DNA of 40,119 nucleotides from a virus (taxonomy: Duplodnaviria; Caudoviricetes): positions 1 to 40,119 of the IMG/VR virus record IMGVR_UViG_3300027973_000098. The stretch is one strand, 5' to 3'. The position numbers and the translations under genes are program-made. This document shows positions 3,329 to 29,019 of the stretch, one piece after another. How positions within the stretch are numbered: position 1 is the first letter of the stretch; the number at the start of each line of letters is the position of its first letter. Below the pieces are notes generated by a model, which was not told where the DNA came from, did not search any database, and saw only the letters and a program-made list of their open reading frames with translations.

Positions 3329-3481
3329 TTATCCCTTCAAAGCCTTATCACTAACTGTATCAACTTTGCTTACAGGAGTAGGGATTGTTTGCCCTTGCGT
3401 TGGCTCATAAATTACACTTTCATCTTTTTTAATTACAATAATGCCTTCAGGATTAGTGATTATGAAGTTTTTTATGCTCAT
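3329..3481 (-). CDS. 50-aa hypothetical protein coupled to MuF-ART (candidate immunity protein)
   Basis: ATGA overlap with the MuF stop; MSIKNFIITNPEGIIVIKKDESVIYEPTQG...KALKG*; fills the gap to the protease start. Confidence 0.55.
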   Translation of the reverse strand: MSIKNFIITNPEGIIVIKKDESVIYEPTQGQTIPTPVSKVDTVSDKALKG

Positions 3482-4959
3482 TGTTTTACCCTTACTTTCA
3501 TTGTTCTGTTTGTTGGGTTTGTTTCTATTACTTCAAAATTAGTATTTCTAGGCAGTAGCCATTCACTTTCTTTATTTTCATAACCGTTTTTTCCTAATAA
3601 CCCATCAAGCATGACTCCTTTAGTGCCTTGAGGATTTTCAATTTCTATTAACCAACCGTTTTTGAATTTTTTAACAAAATTTCCATCAAGACTTGTTGAT
3701 GAATAACCTTTATCAATCCACACATCACCTGGGATTAAACCATCAAACAATTCATCTATTTGAGTTGCAAGATTTCCTTGCCCAATCAGTCTGTATGTAA
3801 CTATTGGTTCAGGTAAACCTGGTGCGTTGTTCATTATCTTGTCTATAACCGCAACATTTTGTTTTACATAATTTACTTCAAGTGGGGATACTTGCCCTGT
3901 TCGTAAGTATTCATTAACTTTGCCGTAACCGTATGATTTGTAATCTCTTAATGCGTAGAAGCCTTCTGTTTGGCCACGCGTACCAGGTTTTTCATAAGCC
4001 AACTCCATAAACTTTTTATTTTCTAATTGGTATTTAATAAATTGATTGCGTTGTTGTCCTTGCTCAGTAAACACACGGTATCCATCAGAAACAGACTCAG
4101 TAGGCAATTCAACAATAGGCGCGCCGTCAGGCATAGGCGCTAAACCGCCATCAATGCCCATTGGGTCATCATCTTCCATGCCAGGAATTACAGGTAACAA
4201 AACACAACGGCAATGTGGGTGAGCAGGAGGTTGTTGATCTCCTGATGCAAATGATTGCCCAATCTGAATTACTTGCCCATCATTTTTTGCGCAAATGTCA
4301 CAAGGATCAGATACAGCCCATTCCATTTTTGCTAGGCCAGCCTCTTTGTAACGCTGAATAGATCCAAAAGACATAGCGCGGTTTTGCTCAGTGATGGCAA
4401 TAGTCAGGGCGCGGCTAGGACTAGCCACATGCCGCCCAATCATTACAGCGGCGCTCTCAGCATCTAAACCAGCGGCAATTGAGTCAGATAAAGCAGTGCC
4501 TAAATTTATTACAGTTTCTTTATTAAACTTTTTGAAATAACTAGCCCCACCTGTTGATCGCAAGTAAGCGCTAAACCCTTCAGTTGGATTAAGAAGCAAC
4601 GCTGTTGCTTGATCTCCTGGTTTCCATTTATCCCAATTAACGGAAATGTCATCAGCCTTTTTTGCCTCACGCGTTTTGCGTATCCATTCATCAGCGGCGG
4701 CTTGCCCTAAAACATAGGCTTCTGCCCATGCGCGCGTGACTGTTTGGCGCAATGGTTCATCATTAAGATAAACATTGAGTATTAACCATGAGCGGGCGCG
4801 GGTACGATCTTGCGCAACATTGTCGGTAGGTTGCGGCTGAGTTTCCTGATAACCATTAAAAACTCTTTTGAAATCTGCTACCTGACGCAGTGCCGCTCTA
4901 ATTTTCACTGCGTTCTTTGCCGCTATGCGCCCGTCTGCCTCAAGAGCGCCCTTAATCAT
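3478..4959 (-). CDS. MuF/SPP1 gp7-like head morphogenesis protein with C-terminal VIP2-type ADP-ribosyltransferase domain
   Basis: MuF motifs (RALTIAITEQNRA, CDIC, PPAHPHCRC) followed by ART motifs (Y..VNEYLR, VTYR, GYSSTS, ESEWLLPRN); directly after portal. Confidence 0.88.
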   Translation of the reverse strand: MIKGALEADGRIAAKNAVKIRAALRQVADFKRVFNGYQETQPQPTDNVAQDRTRARSWLILNVYLNDEPLRQTVTRAWAEAYVLGQAAADEWIRKTREAKKADDISVNWDKWKPGDQATALLLNPTEGFSAYLRSTGGASYFKKFNKETVINLGTALSDSIAAGLDAESAAVMIGRHVASPSRALTIAITEQNRAMSFGSIQRYKEAGLAKMEWAVSDPCDICAKNDGQVIQIGQSFASGDQQPPAHPHCRCVLLPVIPGMEDDDPMGIDGGLAPMPDGAPIVELPTESVSDGYRVFTEQGQQRNQFIKYQLENKKFMELAYEKPGTRGQTEGFYALRDYKSYGYGKVNEYLRTGQVSPLEVNYVKQNVAVIDKIMNNAPGLPEPIVTYRLIGQGNLATQIDELFDGLIPGDVWIDKGYSSTSLDGNFVKKFKNGWLIEIENPQGTKGVMLDGLLGKNGYENKESEWLLPRNTNFEVIETNPTNRTMKVRVKQ

Positions 4960-6806: not shown

Positions 6807-6889
6807 GCGTATCTCCCTTGTTATGCCTCTTGTAAATCAGGCGTGTTGTAATGATAGCGATTTTTGCAACTTCATGTATTGTAAGGTTT

Positions 6890-7891
6890 ATGAACTTAGT
6901 AGAGAAGGCAGTTCACCACGGTGGCAAACTTGCGCCCCTAGTAATTCCTCATGGATTAACTAGCGGTACAGGGCTGATGAACCCATCAATCTTTATTGAT
7001 GATAAAGGCAACATTCTTGTGAACTTACGCCATGTTAATTACACGCTGTACCACGCAGAAAATGAGCAGAAATTTCCTAGCCGTTTTGGGCCACTGTCGT
7101 ACCTGCACCCTGAAAAGGATCGCCGCCTTGTAACGGTTAATTACCTATGCCGCCTCAATGATGATCTTGAGATGACTGACCACGCCAAAGTAGATACATC
7201 TGAATTAGATGTTGAACCTATTTGGGAGTTTGTCGGTGAAGAAGATTGCCGCGTTGTGCAGTGGTTAGATGATTACTACCTGGTGGGAGTGCGTAGAGAC
7301 ACAACCACCAATGGCGTAGGCCGCATGGAGTACAGCCGCATTGAGATTGACTGGGATAACTGGGCAGTCAAAGAAGTCAGGCGTGTGCGCATCAATGCCC
7401 CTGCTCCTAATGAGTCTTATTGTGAAAAGAATTGGATACCTGTCTTAGATAAGCCGTATCACTTCATCAAATGGACAATGCCAACAGAATTAGTTTATGC
7501 CAACCCAATTAGCGGGGAGTGTGAACAGGTATTTGTTAAGCCAACAGCCGTACCACCTAGAGATCAGCGTGGATCTAGCCAGGTCATACGGTGGGGCAGT
7601 ATGTACATCTCAATTACCCATGAAGTAGATCTGTTTAAGAATTACTTAAAGCAGAAAGATGCAATTTACCGTCACCGTTTAGTTGTATGGGATCAAGAAC
7701 TTAATGTTGTAGGGCTAAGCAAAGAATTCTCATTCTTAGACGCTCGCATTGAGTTCTGTGTAGGGGCCGCGGTTCACAAAAGTAACCTTTTGGTGTCTTT
7801 TGGTTTCCAGGATAATGCCGCATTTGTCTTGCAAGTACCTGGTGCAGTAGTGGAAGATCTAATTATGGAGGCACTGGCGTATGAGAATTGA
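6890..7891 (+). CDS. Five-bladed beta-propeller, GH130/GH43-like glycoside hydrolase or phosphorylase
   Basis: Motifs MNPSI, GEEDCRVV (EDPR-like), CEKNW, IEFCVG, SFGFQD. ATG 6890 preferred over the track start at 6851; no SD, TATTGT 7 nt upstream suggests a leaderless mRNA. Confidence 0.65.
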   Translation: MNLVEKAVHHGGKLAPLVIPHGLTSGTGLMNPSIFIDDKGNILVNLRHVNYTLYHAENEQKFPSRFGPLSYLHPEKDRRLVTVNYLCRLNDDLEMTDHAKVDTSELDVEPIWEFVGEEDCRVVQWLDDYYLVGVRRDTTTNGVGRMEYSRIEIDWDNWAVKEVRRVRINAPAPNESYCEKNWIPVLDKPYHFIKWTMPTELVYANPISGECEQVFVKPTAVPPRDQRGSSQVIRWGSMYISITHEVDLFKNYLKQKDAIYRHRLVVWDQELNVVGLSKEFSFLDARIEFCVGAAVHKSNLLVSFGFQDNAAFVLQVPGAVVEDLIMEALAYEN

Positions 7892-8444
7892 GCAATTAGT
7901 TGTAGAACTATCTAAAGATCCATTCAATCCAGCGCTTAATTTTGATGTGGCAGTGGAGTATGAGAAGCAAAATCAAACAGCATCAGCGGTATCTTTCTAT
8001 TTGCGCACCGCTGAATACGGCCATGAAACTCACCCCGCCCTGGTTTATGCGTCACTACTCAAAGCCGCGCATTGTTTTGATGACCAAAATGACCGTCAGG
8101 CAACTGTAAGCAATTGTTTATTGCAGGCTGTGGCGTATTTACCATACCGTCCTGAAGGTTATTTTTTACTTGCGCAGTTCCATGAACGCTTAGGCCAATG
8201 GCAAGAGTGTTACACCTGGGCTTGCATAGGATTACACAATCAACTTAACTCACATCTTCCTGTACATGTTGGCTATGAAGGTCAGTATGTATTGCTGTTT
8301 GAAAAGGCAGTAGCCGCTTGGTGGATAGGCCGTAAAGATGAAAGCCTTGAATTGCTACACAAATTAGACGGCATGAAACTTACCCATGATTATGAAGTTG
8401 CAGTTAAAAGTAATCTAGGAAGGCTCACACATGTTGCTCTTTGA
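7881..8444 (+). CDS. TPR-repeat protein
   Basis: Helical repeats such as LLQAVAYLPYRPEGYFLLAQFHERLGQWQECY; overlaps both neighbours. Confidence 0.7.
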   Translation: MRIEQLVVELSKDPFNPALNFDVAVEYEKQNQTASAVSFYLRTAEYGHETHPALVYASLLKAAHCFDDQNDRQATVSNCLLQAVAYLPYRPEGYFLLAQFHERLGQWQECYTWACIGLHNQLNSHLPVHVGYEGQYVLLFEKAVAAWWIGRKDESLELLHKLDGMKLTHDYEVAVKSNLGRLTHVAL

Positions 8445-9105
8445 TGTTGGCGCTAATCGCGGTGATGCAGTGATGGCAGGGTTGGCTCAGGGATACCGCG
8501 TAATAGCCTTAGAAGCCGCACCACGGGTTTACGGGCAGTTGGTTAAGAACTTTATTTACAACCCTGATGTTGTGCCTCTTAGAATGGCTGTAAGTGACAA
8601 AGATGGCGAGCGCTTAAAGTTTTATGAAGCAGATGAAGATGGATTGAGTACGCTCAATAAAGAATGGCTAACCGCAGATAACATGCCATACGCAGGAAAG
8701 CCTCACCGTGAAGTAGAAGTAAACACAATTACAATTGATGCGCTCGCAGATAAGTATGGCAATCCTGATCTAATCAAGATTGATGTAGAAGGTGCTGAGT
8801 GGCAAGTGATGAAAGGTATGACCCGCCATTATGGAGGAACGCTTTGTTTTGAGTGGACATTTGAAACTATGCACCAACATGAGGATCAATTAGATTATTT
8901 GTTTACCCTGGGTTACAGAGAGATGGCCGCGCAATACATTGTGAACCATTTAGAAGAACCGCAAGAATGGGGAAACATGCAAGTCAATAATGTAGATGAA
9001 CTACTAGCCTGGCATCAACTTACATCTGATGCGTGGATAGATGGTGGTTGGAAAATTGCCAATCTACGACCTACCGCAGATGTAGGTATGTTGTGGGTTC
9101 GTTAA
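8431..9105 (+). CDS. FkbM-family SAM-dependent methyltransferase
   Basis: FDVGANRG motif I, VIALEA, and [12 protein letters not shown] signature. Confidence 0.9.
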
Positions 9106-9626
9106 GAAATGTCTCCAACAACCGTAAACACATTTGATGCAGTACAAAGAATTGTTGCTGAACTGTATTGAGCGCGTATGTTTGGCGCTGAAGAAGTAGC
9201 ACCGTTTGATGTAACTGTTGTTCCAGCACCTTGAGTAATTGGAACTGCTCCTGCACCAATACGCTGAACATAAATAACATTTCCTGCGCTAAATGTATTT
9301 TGTGGAATAGTAATTGCTTGTGAGGTAGCCGCGTTCATTGTTACCCATTTATTAACATCACCTACAACAAGTGTGTAAGCAGTTGTTTGGGCATTAAATG
9401 TTGAAGAAACAGGAGTACCTGTCAAACCTTGCACGCCTTGAGTACCTGTCAAACCTTGAGTGCCTGTTGTACCCTGCGCACCAGTTGTTCCTTGAGTGCC
9501 ATTAGTTCCTTGTGCGCCTGTAGTGCCTTGCAAACCAGTTGTGCCTTGTGCGCCAGTTGTGCCTTGAGAACCAGTTAATCCCTGTGGGCCTTGCACATTT
9601 GGGTTAGGTGTAATTGATACTGACAT
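9102..9626 (-). CDS. Short collagen-like fibre protein with C-terminal beta-sandwich docking domain
   Basis: About 20 Gly-X-Y triplets then NAQT..YTL...RAQYSSA...VVGDIS, paralogous to the C-terminus of 30607..31500. Confidence 0.75.
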
Positions 9627-9958
9627 TATGAGATCTCGCTTCCAAATGCGTTGAATGAACTTGTACCATTTGTTGAATAAACTGTAATTACATCTGTTGC
9701 ACCTAAAGTCACGCCACTTGTGTATGCAAAAGTGGCAGTTGCGCTCAAACTTAAATCATCAACAATGTAATGCTTGTTTTCTAATGTTGCACCTGCGGGG
9801 CGAATAGCAATGCGAATTATGTCGGTTGTTGTATTGCTTGTGTTAGCAACATTGATTGTTGAAACAACTGCTTGAGTTGCACTAGGAACGGTGTAAAGGG
9901 TTGTCGCAGTAACCGCAGATGGTGCTGATTGCCCTAATACTTTGTATGTTGTTGGCAT
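9626..9958 (-). CDS. Small virion fibre adaptor protein
   Basis: 110 aa, beta-rich, [10 protein letters not shown]...LYTVP...FGSEIS; between two collagen genes; AAAGGGAG RBS. Confidence 0.6.
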
Positions 9959-9970
9959 TATTCTCCCTTT

Positions 9971-12631
9971 TTACATTCCGCCGAGCATTAAAATGTCAGG
10001 CATTGCTGTTGCCGCTGTTCCTACAGTACCTTGAGTACCTGTCACGCCCTGAGTACCAACTATGCCTTGCAAGCCAGTTGTTCCTTGAACCTGAATACCC
10101 TGCGTACCTTGAATACCCTGCGCACCTTGCGTTCCAATAGTACCTTGAATTCCATTTGTACCTTGAACTCCTTGAGCGCCAGTTTCACCAATAGCACCTT
10201 GAGTTCCAATTGCTCCTTGTACGCCTTGAGATCCAATAGTTCCTTGCGAGCCTGTTAAACCTTGTGCGCCAGTTAAACCTTGAACACCTGTTGTTCCTTG
10301 AACGCCTTGCGCACCCTGCGCACCAATTGCTCCTTGTGTTCCAGTCTCACCCTGAACACCTTGCATGCCAGTTGCGCCCTGAGATCCAATTAAACCTTGA
10401 GAACCAGTTGTACCTTGAGTACCTTGCGCTCCGTTAGTTCCGCTAGTTCCCTGAGATCCAGTTGTTCCTTGAGAACCATTGAGTCCGTCAGTTCCTTGCG
10501 CACCTAATAAACCTTGAACACCTTGCGTTCCCTGGCTACCAGTTAATCCTTGAGTTCCTGTAGCGCCCTGAGAGCCTGTTAATCCTTGATGACCTTCAAC
10601 TCCTTGAATTCCCTCTGTACCTTGCGTTCCTTCATGGCCCTGAATTCCCTCTAAGCCTTGAGCGCCTGTAGTTCCCTGAACGCCGTCTAAGCCCTGAGAA
10701 CCAGTTTCTCCTTGCGCACCTGTTATGCCTTGTACGCCGCGTGTTCCTTGAATTCCGTTTAATCCTTGAGAACCTGTCTCACCTTGAATTCCAGTAAAGC
10801 CTTGAGAACCTTCAAGTCCTTGCAAGCCTTCAATGCCCTGTGTGCCAGTCTGACCTTGAGCGCCAACTAATCCTTGAGTTCCAGTTGTACCTTGTAAACC
10901 TTCAGTTCCCTGAACGCCTTGCAAACCTGTTGTTCCTTGAGCGCCAACAGTTCCTTGCGCACCAGTAGTTCCTTGAACACCAACGCTCTGCGTAATAAGA
11001 GAAATTGGGTGGCCATTTGCAAATCCTGTTGTACCTGTTCCACCTGATGACAAAAGTGTTGCAGGGAAAGTCCAATAATCATTAGGAACAAATGTAGGTG
11101 TTCCGTTTACTTCCCATTCTTGGTAGTTAGTAGAGTTATTTCTATCTTGAACAAAGAAAATGTCACCGTTTTTAATGTTTGCTAACAAAACATCAATGTC
11201 CACATTTGCATCTGTTAAATGAGATACATAAATGTTTGTAGCAAGAATTTGTACCGCGTTATTCCATTTAATGTCACCAGCATTAGGTGGTGGTGTTTGT
11301 GAGTTGGTTCTTGCTAGATAATCAAAAATAGATGATGATGTACCGCTTGCACCAGTAATACCTTGAACGCCTTGAGTGCCATCTAAGCCCTGAACACCCT
11401 GGCTACCAATAATTCCTTGAACGCCCTCAATGCCTTGCGTTCCATCAGTTCCTTGAATTCCATCAAGACCTTGTGATCCAACTGTGCCTTGAATTCCAGT
11501 AACACCTTGCGCACCCTCAAGGCCTTGCAAACCCTCAATACCTTGCGCGCCAATAGCACTTTGAATTCCCTGTGTTCCTTGTGCGCCTTCTAAACCTTGC
11601 GTACCGTCAAAGCCCTGCAAACCAGTTTCACCTTGTATGCCTGTTATGCCCTGAGAACCTGTAATTCCTTGTAAGCCCTCAATACCTTGAGTGCCATCAT
11701 GTCCTTGAATTCCTTGTGTGCCTTGCGCACCCTCTGTACCTTGAATTCCATCAGTACCCTGCGCTCCAACAAGTCCTTGTAAACCTTCTAAACCTTGAGC
11801 GCCAGTTTCTCCTTGCACACCAGTTGTACCTTGTGCGCCTTCAGATCCTTGAACACCTTGCACACCTTCTACGCCTTGTGTTCCCTGTGTTCCGTCAAAA
11901 CCTTGAACGCCTTGAGCGCCCTCTAATCCCTGCAAGCCATCTAAGCCTTGTGTTCCTTGTGTTCCGTCAAAGCCTTGCAAACCTTCATGGCCTTGAATAC
12001 CAATTAAACCTTGAGCGCCTTCAACTCCTTGAGTACCTTCAAGTCCTTGTGCGCCAGTTTCGCCCTGCGCACCAACAGTTCCTTGAATACCGTCAGTTCC
12101 CTGAATACCTTGCAAACCTTCAACACCTTGAATTCCATCAAAACCCTGTGTTCCTGTTGCGCCTTGTATGCCTTCAATGCCCTGAATTCCCTCAAGTCCT
12201 TGAGTACCAGTTGCGCCCTGCGCTCCATCAAAACCTTGAATACCGTCTAAGCCCTGTGATCCATCTGTTCCTTGTACACCTTGTAAACCTTCAACGCCCT
12301 GCATACCTTCTGCGCCCTGGATACCGTCAAATCCTTGCGCGCCAGTTGTGCCTTGTACTCCTTGCAATCCATCTGCGCCTTGAATTCCATCAAGCCCCTG
12401 TGTTCCGTCTAAACCTTGCGCGCCAATTAAACCTTGTGTGCCTTGTGCTTGATTAAAGCCACCACCCTGAATACCTTGTGGGCCTTGTACGCCTTGTGCA
12501 ACTGCTCCACCTGAAAGACCTTGAACACCTTGAATACCTTGTTGCCCAACAGGGCCAGGTGTAACAACAATGACATTAGGTGTTCCAACAGGATTTGGAT
12601 TGTTAAGAAAACTGTTTGGGTTGTATGTCAT
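9971..12631 (-). CDS. Long collagen-like fibre protein (Gly-X-Gln repeats)
   Basis: Two Gly-X-Y tracts (about 11350-12555 and 10015-10985) separated by a globular domain of about 120 aa. Confidence 0.9.
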   Translation of the reverse strand: MTYNPNSFLNNPNPVGTPNVIVVTPGPVGQQGIQGVQGLSGGAVAQGVQGPQGIQGGGFNQAQGTQGLIGAQGLDGTQGLDGIQGADGLQGVQGTTGAQGFDGIQGAEGMQGVEGLQGVQGTDGSQGLDGIQGFDGAQGATGTQGLEGIQGIEGIQGATGTQGFDGIQGVEGLQGIQGTDGIQGTVGAQGETGAQGLEGTQGVEGAQGLIGIQGHEGLQGFDGTQGTQGLDGLQGLEGAQGVQGFDGTQGTQGVEGVQGVQGSEGAQGTTGVQGETGAQGLEGLQGLVGAQGTDGIQGTEGAQGTQGIQGHDGTQGIEGLQGITGSQGITGIQGETGLQGFDGTQGLEGAQGTQGIQSAIGAQGIEGLQGLEGAQGVTGIQGTVGSQGLDGIQGTDGTQGIEGVQGIIGSQGVQGLDGTQGVQGITGASGTSSSIFDYLARTNSQTPPPNAGDIKWNNAVQILATNIYVSHLTDANVDIDVLLANIKNGDIFFVQDRNNSTNYQEWEVNGTPTFVPNDYWTFPATLLSSGGTGTTGFANGHPISLITQSVGVQGTTGAQGTVGAQGTTGLQGVQGTEGLQGTTGTQGLVGAQGQTGTQGIEGLQGLEGSQGFTGIQGETGSQGLNGIQGTRGVQGITGAQGETGSQGLDGVQGTTGAQGLEGIQGHEGTQGTEGIQGVEGHQGLTGSQGATGTQGLTGSQGTQGVQGLLGAQGTDGLNGSQGTTGSQGTSGTNGAQGTQGTTGSQGLIGSQGATGMQGVQGETGTQGAIGAQGAQGVQGTTGVQGLTGAQGLTGSQGTIGSQGVQGAIGTQGAIGETGAQGVQGTNGIQGTIGTQGAQGIQGTQGIQVQGTTGLQGIVGTQGVTGTQGTVGTAATAMPDILMLGGM

Positions 12632-19802: not shown

Positions 19803-20609
19803 TTATTTTGTCAAACTCTTTCTCAAAAGTTCTCTTAGTTCTGCGGGTGGTGGAACTGCGTTGCGTTTTGCTTCTTCCTGTTCCCTGAACCATGTTTCAT
19901 TCTCCACTCGTTCTCTTTCTGTTTTTGCTCTTGCATCTTGTAATTCTTTTTCCTTGATTTCTGCGGGAGAAAGATTACGGGGCGGCAAAGGGTCATCAAG
20001 CCATCTCTGAGCGTTTAACCAGGTAGCCGCATGTGCTGTGTACCCTGGCACTCTGTTTGGGTCTGATTTGTACCTTAGAGCGCCTTTAATGATTATGTCT
20101 GCATTAGTTGTACGGATCGCTTTTTCAAATGCTTTTTGTGCCGCGCCTTTTCCTACCTTCAAAGGATAAACATTCCAAAAATCCACAAACAATTCTTTTT
20201 TGTCTATGTCTTTATCTTCCTCTTTATCTTCCTCTTTATGGTTCAACGATTGTTCAGCGTTTGTTGAACGCTCGTTCATTCCACGCGCAACAACTGATCT
20301 ACGCCCTGCAAATGATGCTTTTGCAGACTTCTCACGGATCTTTTCAAGGTCATCTTCCACCCTGGCATGTGTCCATAAATTACCTTCAACAATAAAAAAT
20401 TCTTCCAATGTTGGCTTTGCCTCTGCCCATTCTTCAGGGCTGAGACGGGCTACATGTGACAAACGCTCATTACTATTATCTAGTGCTTTACCGCGTTGCC
20501 AGTAATTCATAAGCAACAGCATGTAAGCGCCATGTTGTTGCGCTGTTAAATGTGCTGTATCTGCCAGGTAATCAGAAACATACAACTGCATGTATGGCAG
20601 TGAAGTCAT
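19803..20609 (-). CDS. Replication initiator, DUF1376/YdaU-like
   Basis: PYMQLYVSDYLADTAHLTAQQHGAYMLLL N-terminus; FWNVYPLKVGK...ATWLNAQRWLD C-terminus. Confidence 0.85.
   Translation of the reverse strand: MTSLPYMQLYVSDYLADTAHLTAQQHGAYMLLLMNYWQRGKALDNSNERLSHVARLSPEEWAEAKPTLEEFFIVEGNLWTHARVEDDLEKIREKSAKASFAGRRSVVARGMNERSTNAEQSLNHKEEDKEEDKDIDKKELFVDFWNVYPLKVGKGAAQKAFEKAIRTTNADIIIKGALRYKSDPNRVPGYTAHAATWLNAQRWLDDPLPPRNLSPAEIKEKELQDARAKTERERVENETWFREQEEAKRNAVPPPAELRELLRKSLTK
20191..20276. other. Putative replication origin inside the initiator gene
   Basis: Three tandem imperfect 11-mers at 20244-20276 next to a purine-skewed AT-rich tract with a 12-bp direct repeat. Confidence 0.5.
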
Positions 20610-20947
20610 TTTGCCTCCTTACATTCTTTGATCATGTTTAATGAAATTCCCATTTGTCTTAATGCCTCTAGCCCTCTGATGCGTTGATTTGGATACTTCA
20701 AAGGTTCATCAATACTTGCCCGCTCCTGGCTGGTCATGCCGCCCCACATTCCGTAATTTTCATTTTGGAACGCGTAGGCTAAACAATCTTTCCAAATAGG
20801 GCAAGAGACGCAAATAGATCGCACTGAATTGATGTGATCATAAGCATCAACGGATCTTTGTTCTTCTATGTCGTAAAAAAGATCTGTGTGAATTTCCAAA
20901 CGCCTACATTCTGCATCTTCCCAATTTACTTCTGTGTACTTGGGCAA
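20606..20947 (-). CDS. whiB: WhiB-family Fe-S transcription factor
   Basis: W..AEC...CVSCP..KDC and YGMWGGMTSQER; TTG start at 20947 preferred. Confidence 0.92.
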   Translation of the reverse strand: MPKYTEVNWEDAECRRLEIHTDLFYDIEEQRSVDAYDHINSVRSICVSCPIWKDCLAYAFQNENYGMWGGMTSQERASIDEPLKYPNQRIRGLEALRQMGISLNMIKECKEAK

Positions 20948-21597
20948 CCTTCTTCTCCTGTCGGATCGTAATAAGGGCAGAAATCTGCGCAAAAAGCCAA
21001 AGGTTTTTCAGGAGAAGGTTTCAGTTGCAACGCAACCATTTCCCTTGTCTTTTCTAAATGCGCAAACGCTTGTAATGCAATTTGTTCATCATAAGGTTGC
21101 ATGTAAACCAAAATGTCAGACATTTTTCCATCACGCGGAATACCAACAAGTGCTACATCTTTTACCGTGTAACCATTTTTCACCAATAAATAACCGTAAA
21201 GATGGATCTGCCAAACCTGTTGCCTGTTATTGCCGCCAAAGTAACGCCCACTGCCTTTCTTAATGGTTTTCCAGTCAATTACAGTGTGGTTGATTTTGTC
21301 GTAGCAATCCACATGTCCAGGAACTCCATTCGCTTCTACGGCTATTTCAAGTTCATACTGAACGCCAAACGGATCTTCACGCCTAATGGCTTCTTCAATG
21401 CCTGTGTGAATGTAAGTTCCCAGGATTGCGCCTAACTTGTCACCAACATTTGTTGGCTCTGTCTGCGCTATGTCATGCCAAAGTCTGCGCTGACACCCGC
21501 CAATTGCAGATGGCCCAATGGCTGTTTGTTGTGATCTCGCCCTGGCATTGTCATTTGCCACAAGGGTTTTAACCACCATGTTTTGTAAGTCAATCAC
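20926..21597 (-). CDS. Cas4-like PD-(D/E)XK exonuclease
   Basis: GPSAIGGC, GTYIH, GHVD, IDWKT, QIHLY, C-terminal CADFC...C. Confidence 0.85.
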   Translation of the reverse strand: MIDLQNMVVKTLVANDNARARSQQTAIGPSAIGGCQRRLWHDIAQTEPTNVGDKLGAILGTYIHTGIEEAIRREDPFGVQYELEIAVEANGVPGHVDCYDKINHTVIDWKTIKKGSGRYFGGNNRQQVWQIHLYGYLLVKNGYTVKDVALVGIPRDGKMSDILVYMQPYDEQIALQAFAHLEKTREMVALQLKPSPEKPLAFCADFCPYYDPTGEEGCPSTQK

Positions 21598-26175: not shown

Positions 26176-26391
26176 TTATGTCCAATTAAGTACGCGAATT
26201 GTTCCATTGGCATCAACTATCTTTGCCTGGTTAGTTGTAATGTTTAGCCACGCATCACCAATGCGCGGGTAAATTGGATCGGTAGTTACATTAGGAAATG
26301 TAAAACGCACCGCGGTTTCTAGTTTGTTTAAGCGGTTGTTCAAATCGGCAAACATTCTTTGCAAATCAATAGGTTGATTGATGTATGGCAT
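26176..26391 (-). CDS. Small tail-associated protein
   Basis: LNNRLNKLE coil then PRIGDAWLN; coupled to the hub gene. Confidence 0.6.
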   Translation of the reverse strand: MPYINQPIDLQRMFADLNNRLNKLETAVRFTFPNVTTDPIYPRIGDAWLNITTNQAKIVDANGTIRVLNWT

Positions 26392-27503
26392 TACGCTTCT
26401 CCTGCTCCTTGTGCAAGAGTTAATGTTACGCGTTCAGGGCCATCTTCACCTGGTTGAACTGTAAGGCCAACAATGCGGTAAATTTCATCAAGCGTGTTAG
26501 GAAAACGGCTATCTGTAATAATAATGCGAGCGTCATCACCTAATTGATAAGTGCCAAATACAGGATCAACATAAGCGGGAACAACAACCTTTAATACAGT
26601 TGGCGGATAAGAGGTAGCCAAAGATTGCGCGTTGGCTAATTGTTGCAAAACTGTTACATCTGTAATGTCTGAATAGTTAGATGTAGTCTCAAGCAATGCC
26701 CACCCTGCAAGAAGTTTTGAGGTGTCTTGACCTAGTGAAATCAACTTGCCTTCATTAGAACCAGCGCCTAACGCATAAACCGTGTTGGCCACAACTGAGC
26801 CATCTTCAGGGTACTCATACTCCACCATGTTACCTGCGGGAAAAGTAAATACAGGAACATTAGGATCACCAAAAGAATAGGCCAAACCACTACGCGGGTA
26901 GTAGGTGTTAAAGTTTTTTACAGGCAAATCTGTGATTGCGTCATACTCAACATCAATTGAAAAATCAAATCCATCACCCTGACGGCTTAAATCTTGCACC
27001 GCTTGAAACACATTTTTTAATTCATAATTGTAATAAACACGGTCAATTAACACACCTGATGATGTTTGTCCTGCGCTGTTATAGCCAACGCCAATGTCAC
27101 CATAGGTTGCATTTTGTGCATTTTCAATAAGTGTTTTGGCTACAAGTAATTGGTCTGTATTTGTAAATTGAATGTCCTGCGTGATGCGCCTATGGTCAAA
27201 GTATGAAATCCATTCTTGCGCGCTAAATGTCAGTGTTTGTGAGGTGCTATTGTATGAGCGCCCCCAAATAACTCCACCCCATACCAAAATGCCATCACGA
27301 TCTACATACAACCCGCAGTGAGCAGGAATAGTTGAAAGTTCAACATTGTATTTATCTGCGTTTACGCCTGACAAAAGTAAGTGACCTTGAAAAGATCCAG
27401 GTTGATTGAGTTGCTGAGTAAAACCAACACCAGTTAAAGGCAGTTCACCAATAATGGTGTTGCTTAATAAATCAACAAAAAGGTAACGGTAGGTAGTAGC
27501 CAT
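26391..27503 (-). CDS. Minor tail / baseplate hub protein
   Basis: LVWGGVIW, GFDF, YPEDG...NTVYALG, YQLGDD pattern of actinophage minor tail proteins. Confidence 0.8.
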   Translation of the reverse strand: MATTYRYLFVDLLSNTIIGELPLTGVGFTQQLNQPGSFQGHLLLSGVNADKYNVELSTIPAHCGLYVDRDGILVWGGVIWGRSYNSTSQTLTFSAQEWISYFDHRRITQDIQFTNTDQLLVAKTLIENAQNATYGDIGVGYNSAGQTSSGVLIDRVYYNYELKNVFQAVQDLSRQGDGFDFSIDVEYDAITDLPVKNFNTYYPRSGLAYSFGDPNVPVFTFPAGNMVEYEYPEDGSVVANTVYALGAGSNEGKLISLGQDTSKLLAGWALLETTSNYSDITDVTVLQQLANAQSLATSYPPTVLKVVVPAYVDPVFGTYQLGDDARIIITDSRFPNTLDEIYRIVGLTVQPGEDGPERVTLTLAQGAGEA

Positions 27504-27512
27504 AGGATCATC

Positions 27513-27719
27513 TTACCTGCGCCGACCCCATTGAACCATGTTCCAGGCTCTTTCATGGAAATAATAAATAAACACTTTTACTACGGTTTCCCAAAACGCT
27601 ATAAGCGTTGCTAAAGAACCTTTACCTGTGATTACATAAACAACAGCCCAGGAGGATACCGTTCCCCATACTCTATAACTGAGCGATTTAACAAATGAGC
27701 GAGTTTTAGTTACTTTCAC
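27513..27719 (-). CDS. DUF2061-like small membrane protein
   Basis: RSFVKSLSYRVWGT...KVFIYYFHERAWN..WG. Confidence 0.8.
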   Translation of the reverse strand: MKVTKTRSFVKSLSYRVWGTVSSWAVVYVITGKGSLATLIAFWETVVKVFIYYFHERAWNMVQWGRRR

Positions 27720-27806
27720 TTATTCTCCCCATTTTTTATCAACAAAATAAACCATAATTAGAGCAATCACAACAGATGCAATAACAGCAAGTATGTATTC
27801 CTTCAT
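27720..27806 (-). CDS. 28-aa membrane peptide
   Basis: TGATG overlap; MKEYILAVIASVVIALIMVYFVDKKWGE. Confidence 0.5.
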   Translation of the reverse strand: MKEYILAVIASVVIALIMVYFVDKKWGE

Positions 27807-28561
27807 CAAATACCCATTTCTTTGCGCTTTTGAGTAGCCGAAATTGCTTCAATTTCATCACCCAATTTTACTTGTTCAATTTTGTACCCAACATCTCTAC
27901 CGTACACAATGTTTGTAATGTTTGGCAATTTAAGAACAAGAGCATCAACCATAGCGGGGTCTTGTTCAATGTAATGTTTTACTTCATTAAAATTTAACGG
28001 ATCTTTTTCGCTAGTTTTGTATGTATTGCGAACACCTAAAAGAACTTGATCTGTTCTTTTGCCAGCCTCGGCATAAAGAGCATGATGGCCTTCATGCCAG
28101 GGTTGATAACGGCCTAACATCAAAGTTGTAGGTTTTCTCCAATCATGTAATCCAGCAATTCTGATAACATCATCAACTTCTTCTTCAATAGTTGAACCAT
28201 CAAGAATTACTACATCAGTATCCGTTGGGTTTTCCCACATTTTATTAGTATCTTCAAAACGCCCAACTTCAATACGGTTTACCCAAATTAGTAGATCAGG
28301 TTTTCCAAATGCGGCGCGAGTTTCTTTAGTTGGACAAATAAAATCAACAATAGTTATGTAGCCTTGTTTGCTTGTTAAGCGAGCCAATGCGCCTAAACGC
28401 CTTGCTTGTTCAATTCTATCTTCAGGTGCAAACCCTAAATCTGAATTCAGATCAGCCCGCACTTCATCTGCATTAAAATGAATTGCGTTTATGCGGTCAG
28501 CAAGGGCGGTAGCAAGAGCGGTTTTTCCTGCACCTGGCAAACCAATTATTTGAATAATCAT
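27806..28561 (-). CDS. cysC: Adenylylsulfate kinase fused to an HxGH nucleotidyltransferase domain
   Basis: GLPGAGKT, NADEVR, DLGFAPEDRIEQARR, DFICP; then GRYQPWHEGH, VYGRDVG, ISATQKR. Confidence 0.85.
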   Translation of the reverse strand: MIIQIIGLPGAGKTALATALADRINAIHFNADEVRADLNSDLGFAPEDRIEQARRLGALARLTSKQGYITIVDFICPTKETRAAFGKPDLLIWVNRIEVGRFEDTNKMWENPTDTDVVILDGSTIEEEVDDVIRIAGLHDWRKPTTLMLGRYQPWHEGHHALYAEAGKRTDQVLLGVRNTYKTSEKDPLNFNEVKHYIEQDPAMVDALVLKLPNITNIVYGRDVGYKIEQVKLGDEIEAISATQKRKEMGI

Positions 28562-29019
28562 TTATTTGCCTTATCTTTTAATGTTTCATACAATTCTTGC
28601 GCTTTGTCAAACAAGTATAATGGATAAGACTCAGGTGTAGAATTTTTATTTAGTTTTGTGTAATCAATTTTTGCAGGTTCTAGTTCTATTAACTGTGCAA
28701 TTTGATTTATTGTTTTTTCAGTTTTGTTTGTTAAGTCATCAAAGAAAACCCAACGCTCAGGATTTGTTTTTTCTAATGCAGTGTTATAGAAACGCAACCA
28801 CCAGCGCTCAGAGGCATTTTTATCGGTCTCATCAAACCAGTTCATAAAACTTGAGATGGAATAATGAGGATCCCTTATTAAAATAAAATGTTTATTTGTA
28901 ATCAGACTACAATTGTGAGTAAACTTTCCAACCTCTAAATCAAGAAAAGATTGTTTTAATAAATCATCACAAAAAAAGTTTCCTGAGCGTGGAAATCCTT
29001 CTACTGTTATTCTACCCAT
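28558..29019 (-). CDS. Sulfotransferase-fold protein
   Basis: 5'-PSB loop GFPRSGN, 3'-PB motif LIRDP...ISS, later FFDDL; start at MGRITV. Confidence 0.75.
   Translation of the reverse strand: MGRITVEGFPRSGNFFCDDLLKQSFLDLEVGKFTHNCSLITNKHFILIRDPHYSISSFMNWFDETDKNASERWWLRFYNTALEKTNPERWVFFDDLTNKTEKTINQIAQLIELEPAKIDYTKLNKNSTPESYPLYLFDKAQELYETLKDKANK

What the first reader, a model, noticed from the sequence alone, without database searches (positions are those of the whole stretch)
27513..29019. Self-contained sulfation cassette in the tail operon: sulfotransferase, putative minimal PAPS synthase, membrane proteins
Seen: four coupled AT-rich genes inserted between the tail fibre genes and the hub: a sulfotransferase fold (FPRSGN, IRDP), a 251-aa APS kinase fused to an HxGH nucleotidyltransferase, a 28-aa TM peptide and a DUF2061-like protein. 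The second domain has HEGH, VYGRDVG and ISATQKR, echoing the HxxH, VGRDHAG and ISGT..R motifs of ATP sulfurylases, which belong to the same superfamily; kinase-then-sulfurylase is the order in animal PAPS synthases. Inference: the fusion makes APS then PAPS at under half the usual size and feeds the sulfotransferase to sulfate virion fibres/glycans or the host receptor, so this cysC would serve virion or surface modification rather than sulfur assimilation.
Basis: partly seen in the sequence, partly recalled or inferred. Interest (0 to 1): 0.75.

Follow-up and report, generated by a model that had tools for sequence, protein, structure and literature searches.

The report
Phage mini PAPS synthase plus sulfotransferase
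A lake phage carries, among its tail genes, a small sulfate-transferring-type enzyme next to a 251-residue protein whose tiny second half is likely an undescribed kind of ATP sulfurylase, so the phage would make its own activated sulfate (PAPS) to decorate a target that is possibly its tail fibre; nothing has been assayed.

Summary
The four coupled genes are real. The 251-aa protein is a lid-shortened APS kinase fused to a 109-aa HxGH nucleotidyltransferase. That domain is not a Sat-family ATP sulfurylase: it lacks QxRN and is closest to NadM-type NMN adenylyltransferases, with about 25 central residues missing. Genomic evidence still points to ATP sulfurylase function. It is fused to full APS kinases in both orders and to DUF2061. 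As a split pair it follows cysG-cysI-cysH in 9 alphaproteobacterial genomes; none of the 10 genomes of that lineage that carry it gave a CysD or CysN match. Sulfotransferases occur in 26 of 29 phage records with the fusion against 1 of 19 controls; PAPS reductase in 0 of 29. So sulfation, not sulfur assimilation, is the likely purpose. The target is open: only 5 of 147 related loci share the fibre setting, although here the sulfotransferase appears to be swapped together with the fibre. The family is common in freshwater phages, is catalogued only as 'kinase' (phrog_10255), and this scan has reported it before on other genomes. No assay exists in the papers searched.

The parts
28558..29019 (-). 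Small PAPS-dependent sulfotransferase-fold protein, 153 aa (5'-PSB FPRSGN, 3'-PB IRDP...S)
   Evidence: Pfam alone weak (PF13469 E 0.008); profile of 9 relatives hits cytosolic sulfotransferases in PDB at E 3e-5; Atlas look-alikes 0.95-0.97 carry PF00685 in 14-43% of members
28148..28561 (-). Fusion protein, N-terminal domain (about residues 1-138): APS kinase fold with shortened lid
   Evidence: PF01583 E 4e-17; below TIGR00455 cut-off, 65 of 138.7 bits; all listed Foldseek rows are APS kinases; D32, R35, F44, R49, F102 kept
27806..28135 (-). Fusion protein, C-terminal 109-aa HxGH nucleotidyltransferase; candidate minimal ATP sulfurylase
   Evidence: Profile best matches NadM-type NMN adenylyltransferases (E 2e-14); VIA Z 9.6-9.8 to NadM and PPAT, 8.1 to ATP sulfurylase 1v47; conserved G150 R151 Q153 H156 H159 R178 G221 R222 G225 S241 R246
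27720..27806 (-). 28-aa single-pass membrane peptide, optional
   Evidence: Hydropathy; tblastn relatives in 4 of 147 fusion loci, further look-alikes seen between fusion and DUF2061
27513..27719 (-). DUF2061 small membrane-associated protein, constant partner of the fusion
   Evidence: PF09834 E 3e-16; directly downstream in 134 of 144 loci; fused to the nucleotidyltransferase in P0152 and P0244
29007..29438 (-). Fibre-adjacent small protein (phrog_7759)
   Evidence: E 4e-31; fused to a sulfotransferase-like domain in L020
29438..30607 (-). FN3 plus glycine-rich fibre-like protein, 29% Ser+Thr; candidate sulfation target
   Evidence: PF21722, PF00041; composition
26391..27503 (-). Minor tail (hub-like) protein, downstream boundary of the cassette
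   Evidence: phrog_1885 E 9e-57

Best explanation
The 251-aa protein is an APS-kinase-fold domain fused to a NadM-like HxGH domain that likely acts as a minimal ATP sulfurylase, so the protein likely makes PAPS, which the neighbouring sulfotransferase-fold enzyme would use to sulfate a phage product, possibly the adjacent Ser/Thr/Gly-rich fibre. Steps: (1) the C-terminal domain binds ATP through HxGH and the IS.T..R helix (motifs shown; role from superfamily knowledge) and would adenylylate sulfate, perhaps held by the family-specific arginines R178 and R222 (inferred); (2) the kinase would phosphorylate the 3'-OH of APS, pulling the unfavourable first step (APS-binding residues shown, lid loss unexplained, activity inferred); (3) the sulfotransferase would move the sulfuryl group to a hydroxyl (fold shown, target inferred); (4) DUF2061 is a constant partner, perhaps supplying sulfate or anchoring the enzyme at the membrane (linkage shown, role speculative).
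For: Fusions: 6 of 17 chosen relatives join the same small domain to a full APS kinase over the TIGR00455 cut-off, one with the domain first and five with it last; they are scattered on a weakly resolved tree. Replacement: in 9 alphaproteobacterial genomes the split pair follows cysG-cysI-cysH-DUF2061; among the 10 genomes of that lineage with the domain, CysD 0 of 10 and CysN 0 of 10 reach cut-off, Sat 1 of 10, while recA is recovered in 9 of 10 and gyrA in 7 of 10; a relative without the pair has cysH-cysD-cysNC in tandem (L143). Co-occurrence: sulfotransferase-like gene within about 5 kb in 56 of 147 fusion contigs against 1 of 77 control loci; whole records 26 of 29 against 1 of 19, and 9 of 9 against 0 of 12 among records at least 90% complete; Pfam only 17 of 29 against 0 of 19. 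All 9 cultured phages with the full fusion carry a sulfotransferase-like gene. PAPS reductase 0 of 29 and none in this genome. Kinase keeps residues matching M. tuberculosis CysC D480, R483, F492, R497, F576 (PMC4373884, passages). A WhiB gene suggests an actinobacterial host; sequenced freshwater acI strains lack assimilatory sulfate reduction (PMC5301498, PMC12817590, passages).
Against: No assay. The QxRN phosphosulfate-anchoring motif of Sat (PMC6607087, passages) is absent; profile comparison with 11 Sat domains gives only 30-33% probability against 95% for one NadM-like protein. The kinase lacks the lid residues equivalent to R559 and K562, and lid closure is essential in CysC. One relative is fused to a HAD phosphatase (P0245). 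One genome has both the fusion and CysD (G005). The alphaproteobacterial genomes are one lineage and incomplete (0.7-1.2 Mb). Fusion-bearing records are larger than controls, related to each other, and two of four sulfotransferase queries were built from genes found near the fusion; 7 of 24 sulfotransferase-like representatives have no Pfam hit. Only 5 of 147 fusion loci have the fibre-adjacent marker, and in cultured Sano-like phages the genes lie opposite the tail operon among non-structural genes.
Confidence: 0.7

Rival explanations
1. PAPS supply is as above, but the sulfotransferase acts on something other than the fibre: a hydroxylated residue or base, a phage-made glycan, a host envelope component or a small molecule.
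For: Most relatives sit among 2OG-Fe(II) oxygenases, Asp/Asn hydroxylases, halogenases and glycosyltransferases rather than fibres; L219 fuses a 2OG oxygenase to a sulfotransferase; phiRSL1 has the kinase beside glycosyltransferases, a sulfotransferase and thymidylate synthase.
Against: In this lineage the sulfotransferase lies in the tail operon and appears exchanged in one block with the fibre; the order fibre, phrog_7759, sulfotransferase, fusion recurs in distant phages L246 and L283; 5 of 5 fusion loci with phrog_7759 have a sulfotransferase.
Confidence: 0.4
2. The C-terminal domain adenylylates or cytidylylates another acceptor (NMN, phosphopantetheine, sugar phosphate), and the kinase uses host APS.
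For: Closest solved relatives are NadM and PPAT; Atlas clusters are labelled cytidylyltransferase-like; NADAR gene adjacent in Sano and Bhz60; HAD fusion P0245.
Against: About 25 residues between strand 3 and the C-terminal motif of NadM are missing (NadM 76-109 against 9 profile positions), a stretch that I recall holds the nicotinamide-binding helix; fusion partners are nearly all APS kinase or DUF2061; it does not explain the cysG-cysI-cysH operons without CysDN.
Confidence: 0.13
3. The lid-shortened kinase is a non-catalytic APS or PAPS binding domain, and the protein makes APS only.
For: Lid arginine and lysine missing; below TIGR00455 cut-off; non-catalytic APS-kinase-like domains exist in fungal ATP sulfurylases (recalled).
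Against: P-loop lysine kept in 62 of 64 and the Mg-linked and APS-binding residues in 59-62 of 64; the short kinase also occurs alone beside sulfotransferases (L105, phiRSL1).
Confidence: 0.08
4. An auxiliary metabolic cysC that boosts host sulfur assimilation, the reading given to phage cysC genes in print.
For: PMC10914622 assigns 62 phage cysC genes to assimilatory sulfate reduction (passages); the cellular split pair does sit in an assimilation operon.
Against: PAPS reductase 0 of 29 records and none here; sulfotransferases 26 of 29; likely hosts lack the reductive pathway.
Confidence: 0.05

Closest known systems
Bifunctional PAPS synthases and Sat-CysC fusions (human PAPSS1, PDB 1x6v, 630 aa; Aquifex 2gks; Thiobacillus 3cr8)
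   Same: APS kinase joined to an HxGH-superfamily adenylyltransferase; kinase first as in the animal enzyme; predicted product PAPS
   Different: 251 aa; second domain is 109 aa, without PUA-like domain, QxRN or the full VGRDHAG loop; kinase lid shortened
NadM-type NMN adenylyltransferases (MJ0541, PDB 1f9a; Francisella NadM 2qjt)
   Same: GRxQPxHxGH register, NP motif after strand 2, C-terminal S.T.IR helix; best sequence match, Z 9.6
   Different: About 25 central residues missing; extra conserved arginines R178 and R222; all NadM models far below cut-off; linked to sulfate genes
PHROG 10255 ('kinase'; Xylella phage Sano gp35 and relatives)
   Same: Whole-length match, E 5e-72; 34-38% identity to the cultured phages
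   Different: Label covers only the kinase; no function recorded for the second domain
Phage cysC auxiliary metabolic genes (PMC10914622, passages)
   Same: Freshwater phage APS kinase genes, whiB-encoding actinophages in the same data
   Different: Read there as assimilation; the main text has no occurrence of sulfotransferase, adenylyltransferase or DUF2061; supplements not seen, and whether their cysC genes are this fusion was not checked
Dedicated PAPS supply plus sulfotransferase loci of bacteria (rhizobial nodPQ-nodH, Xanthomonas raxPQ-raxST; recalled)
   Same: Own sulfate activation next to a tailoring sulfotransferase
   Different: Those use CysDN-type sulfurylases and have known acceptors

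Membership tests
Sat-type ATP sulfurylase (PF01747) | Profile match to PF01747 | tested here: not met
   No hit at E 0.01; a cellular relative scores 14.3 of 24.3 bits
Sat-type ATP sulfurylase (PF01747) | QxRN motif before HxxH | tested here: not met
   GRxQ in 140-141 of 141 rows; motif definition from PMC6607087
Sat-type ATP sulfurylase (PF01747) | HxxH motif | tested here: met
   H156 140 of 141, H159 142 of 142
Sat-type ATP sulfurylase (PF01747) | VGRDHAG loop | tested here: inconclusive
   G221 and R222 in 147 of 148, D223 below 70% conservation, no HAG
Sat-type ATP sulfurylase (PF01747) | HUP/HxGH Rossmann-like fold | tested here: met
   Z 8.1, rmsd 2.8 over 105 residues to 1v47; shared with the whole superfamily
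ATP sulfurylase (activity) | ATP + sulfate to APS + PPi | not testable with these tools
   Needs assay
NadM-type NMN adenylyltransferase | Curated model cut-off (NF002243, TIGR01527) | tested here: not met
   24.5 of 127 and 19.1 of 181 bits
NadM-type NMN adenylyltransferase | Central segment between strand 3 and the C-terminal motif (nicotinamide side, recalled) | tested here: not met
   MJ0541 76-109 spans 9 profile positions; 107 model residues cover chain 1-134
APS kinase (PF01583, TIGR00455) | Profile match | tested here: inconclusive
   Over Pfam cut-off, under TIGR00455 cut-off
APS kinase (PF01583, TIGR00455) | P-loop and APS-binding Asp, two Arg, two Phe | tested here: met
   K13 62, D32 59, R35 62, F44 60, R49 62, F/Y102 60 of 64
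APS kinase (PF01583, TIGR00455) | Lid with conserved Arg and Lys | tested here: not met
   About 19 residues of the lid missing
PAPS-dependent sulfotransferase | 5'-PSB and 3'-PB motifs in order | tested here: met
   Sequence; alignment to SULT2A8
PAPS-dependent sulfotransferase | Curated Pfam cut-off; activity and acceptor | tested here: inconclusive
   16.9 of 27 bits; acceptor not testable
DUF2061 (PF09834) | Profile match over cut-off | tested here: met
   60.1 of 23.1 bits

The most novel reading that the evidence does not exclude
A third, roughly 110-residue type of ATP sulfurylase, evolved from NMN adenylyltransferase by loss of the nicotinamide-side segment, is spread by thousands of phages, has replaced CysDN in at least one marine-type alphaproteobacterial lineage, and powers phage-encoded sulfation of virion fibres, a virion modification not found in the papers searched.
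Probability: 0.35. Interest if true: 0.88.

Novelty: new variant of a known kind. Interest (0 to 1): 0.7.

Why it matters
If the small domain makes APS, it is a non-orthologous ATP sulfurylase missed by Pfam and NCBIfam, so some genomes now scored as unable to activate sulfate would be misread, and the smallest PAPS synthase candidate would be a handy reagent for sulfation chemistry. It would also recast a common viral 'cysC' from host sulfur assimilation to phage-directed sulfation. The claim is cheap to test: a 109-aa domain, E. coli cysDN and cysC mutants, and cultured phages that carry the system.

Tried and rejected
Single-sequence PDB search with the sulfotransferase found nothing useful; only the profile worked. 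The viral scan with it gave one marginal locus. No ATP sulfurylase appeared among the best 60 of 66 profile hits or the listed Foldseek rows; absence from such lists excludes nothing. A sample of 400 genomes from the phylum of G002 had no further match, so the family is rare in those cells. A strict sulfotransferase motif found only 5 seeds and was loosened. Low GC as proof of foreign origin was rejected. NAD-salvage reading (NadR-like) was considered because of NADAR neighbours and set low. No RNA holder listed. The five top genome-contig hits (L086-L090) were not examined and may be phage contigs in bins. Paper searches with no relevant hit on this domain or on phage sulfation: (listings only); DUF2061 search gave 6 single mentions, not read. 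The library lacks most subscription papers. No complex prediction was sent. The 346-aa ORF at 6851-7891 matched nothing.

Full report
Setting. The window is a whole virus record (40,119 bases, completeness 100 by CheckV) of a tailed phage with terminase, portal, tail tube, tape measure and Dit genes. A WhiB gene suggests an actinobacterial host and near-identical DNA is held by freshwater metagenomes.

Observation. The block is the lowest-GC 1.5 kb of the window, but its third-position GC equals that of the flanking tail genes.

The kinase half. It matches PF01583 (E 4e-17) and every listed Foldseek row for the AlphaFold model (pLDDT 95) is an APS kinase. That paper finds lid closure essential, so activity of the short form is a real uncertainty.

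The second half. A 40-sequence profile matches NadM-type NMN adenylyltransferases best (E 2e-14) at both ends, with NadM residues 76-109 collapsed to 9 positions. Its model (pLDDT 96) aligns to PPAT and NadM at Z 9.2-9.8 and to ATP sulfurylases at Z 5.0-8.1. It has GRxQPxHxGH, not QxRN; the 'GRD' is conserved only as YGR.VGY; R178 (137 of 145) and R222 (147 of 148) are family-specific. It therefore fails membership of both Sat and NadM families.

Why ATP sulfurylase is still the best reading. First, fusions. Searching with the domain alone found 779 clusters at 50% identity, 150 listed. Of 17 that I picked for long or lid-bearing partners, 6 have an APS kinase over the TIGR00455 cut-off, in both domain orders; two others are fused to DUF2061; one to a HAD phosphatase. 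Second, replacement. Ten of the first 11 genomes listed around G002 carry the domain. In 9 it ends the series cysG-cysI-cysH-DUF2061-kinase-nucleotidyltransferase; the tenth contig stops just upstream. CysH and the sulfite reductase pass NCBIfam cut-offs. None of the 10 has CysD or CysN over cut-off (the four weak CysD hits lie on cysH), one has Sat, in a sugar-modification cluster. recA was recovered in 9 and gyrA in 7 of 10, so loss of cysD from all ten by incompleteness alone is unlikely, though they are one lineage. A relative lacking the pair has cysH-cysD-cysNC in tandem (L143); in another, cysH is divergent from cysD-cysN (L144). Against a strict rule, G005 has both the fusion and CysD.

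What the PAPS is for. The fusion is common in phages: 6,077 of 7,997 scored candidates, about 1,800 stored viral stretches estimated. After dropping 12 duplicate contigs, 147 fusion loci remained; DUF2061 lies directly downstream in 134 of 144 with enough sequence and a sulfotransferase-like gene lies within the locus in 56 of 147, against 1 of 77 control loci picked by the fibre-adjacent gene and lacking the fusion; both control loci that have the fusion have a sulfotransferase. 17 of 24 representatives hit a sulfotransferase Pfam family at E 0.05 or better, and a profile including the rest hits heparan sulfate and cytosolic sulfotransferases. On whole records (29 of the 38 longest fusion contigs, 20 controls) the count is 26 of 29 against 1 of 19, Pfam only 17 of 29 against 0 of 19. 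PAPS reductase occurs in 0 of 29. These counts are not independent draws and fusion records are larger. All 9 cultured phages with the full fusion have a sulfotransferase-like gene: 8 Sano- and Salvo-like phages, one clade, and DLP_6. Freshwater acI actinobacteria lack assimilatory sulfate reduction (PMC5301498, PMC12817590; passages), which would explain carrying both activation steps; the host here is not identified.

The target. The order fibre, phrog_7759, sulfotransferase, fusion recurs in distant phages (L246, L283). In a related contig from run X5 the hub, DUF2061, peptide and fusion are 97% identical, the match stops exactly at the fusion start (28561) and resumes in the fibre gene after 1,680 other bases; another contig joins fibre start and hub with no match to the cassette. 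So the PAPS module and the sulfotransferase-fibre block are inherited separately, and the sulfotransferase seems to travel with the fibre. I could not read the replaced block. But only 5 of 147 fusion loci have this fibre marker; most lie among hydroxylases, halogenases and glycosyltransferases, and in Sano-like phages the genes are outside the tail operon. I put the fibre as target here at about 0.45.

Prior knowledge. PHROGs lists the protein as 'kinase'. PMC10914622 reads freshwater phage cysC as assimilation (passages; supplements not seen). Six paper searches listed nothing on this domain or on phage sulfation. This scan has reported the same family on at least eight other windows with the same conclusion; my reading was formed before that look-up and those notes are not counted as support.

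Verdict. Real feature; candidate minimal PAPS synthase with an unrecognised ATP sulfurylase domain (0.7), serving sulfation rather than assimilation; target open. New variant of a known kind, interest 0.7.

Noticed in passing
window 3478-4959 (-): Head morphogenesis (MuF) protein fused to an ADP-ribosyltransferase domain (PF04233 plus PF03496), the known MuF polymorphic toxin layout (recalled).
   Followed up: no
window 6851-9105 (+): Three genes on the opposite strand between portal and collagen fibre genes: a 346-aa protein with no match in Pfam, PHROGs, NCBIfam or PDB sequences, a TPR protein and an FkbM methyltransferase; possibly a second fibre-modifying module.
   Followed up: partly
window 9102-12631 (-): Two collagen-like (G-X-Q) fibre proteins next to the terminase, 886 and 174 aa, Thr-rich; alternative sulfation targets.
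   Followed up: no
window 20606-20992 (-): WhiB-like regulator (phrog_472, E 2.5e-15), pointing to an actinobacterial host.
   Followed up: partly
L219:3511-4965: 2OG-Fe(II) oxygenase fused to a sulfotransferase-like domain beside the fusion gene: hydroxylate-then-sulfate logic.
   Followed up: no
L020:1788-2630: phrog_7759-like fibre-adjacent domain fused to a sulfotransferase-like domain, directly before the fusion.
   Followed up: partly
L073:2165-4390 and L077: RuBisCO-like protein and nucleotidyltransferase genes close to the fusion in large freshwater phages.
   Followed up: no
L083 (phiRSL1 ORF230-238): Short-lid kinase without the small domain, in a cluster with glycosyltransferases, a sulfotransferase and thymidylate synthase: candidate sulfated-sugar DNA modification.
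   Followed up: no
L105, L107, L109, L116: Pelagibacteraceae genomes with the short-lid kinase alone next to a sulfotransferase-like gene; their source of APS was not checked.
   Followed up: no
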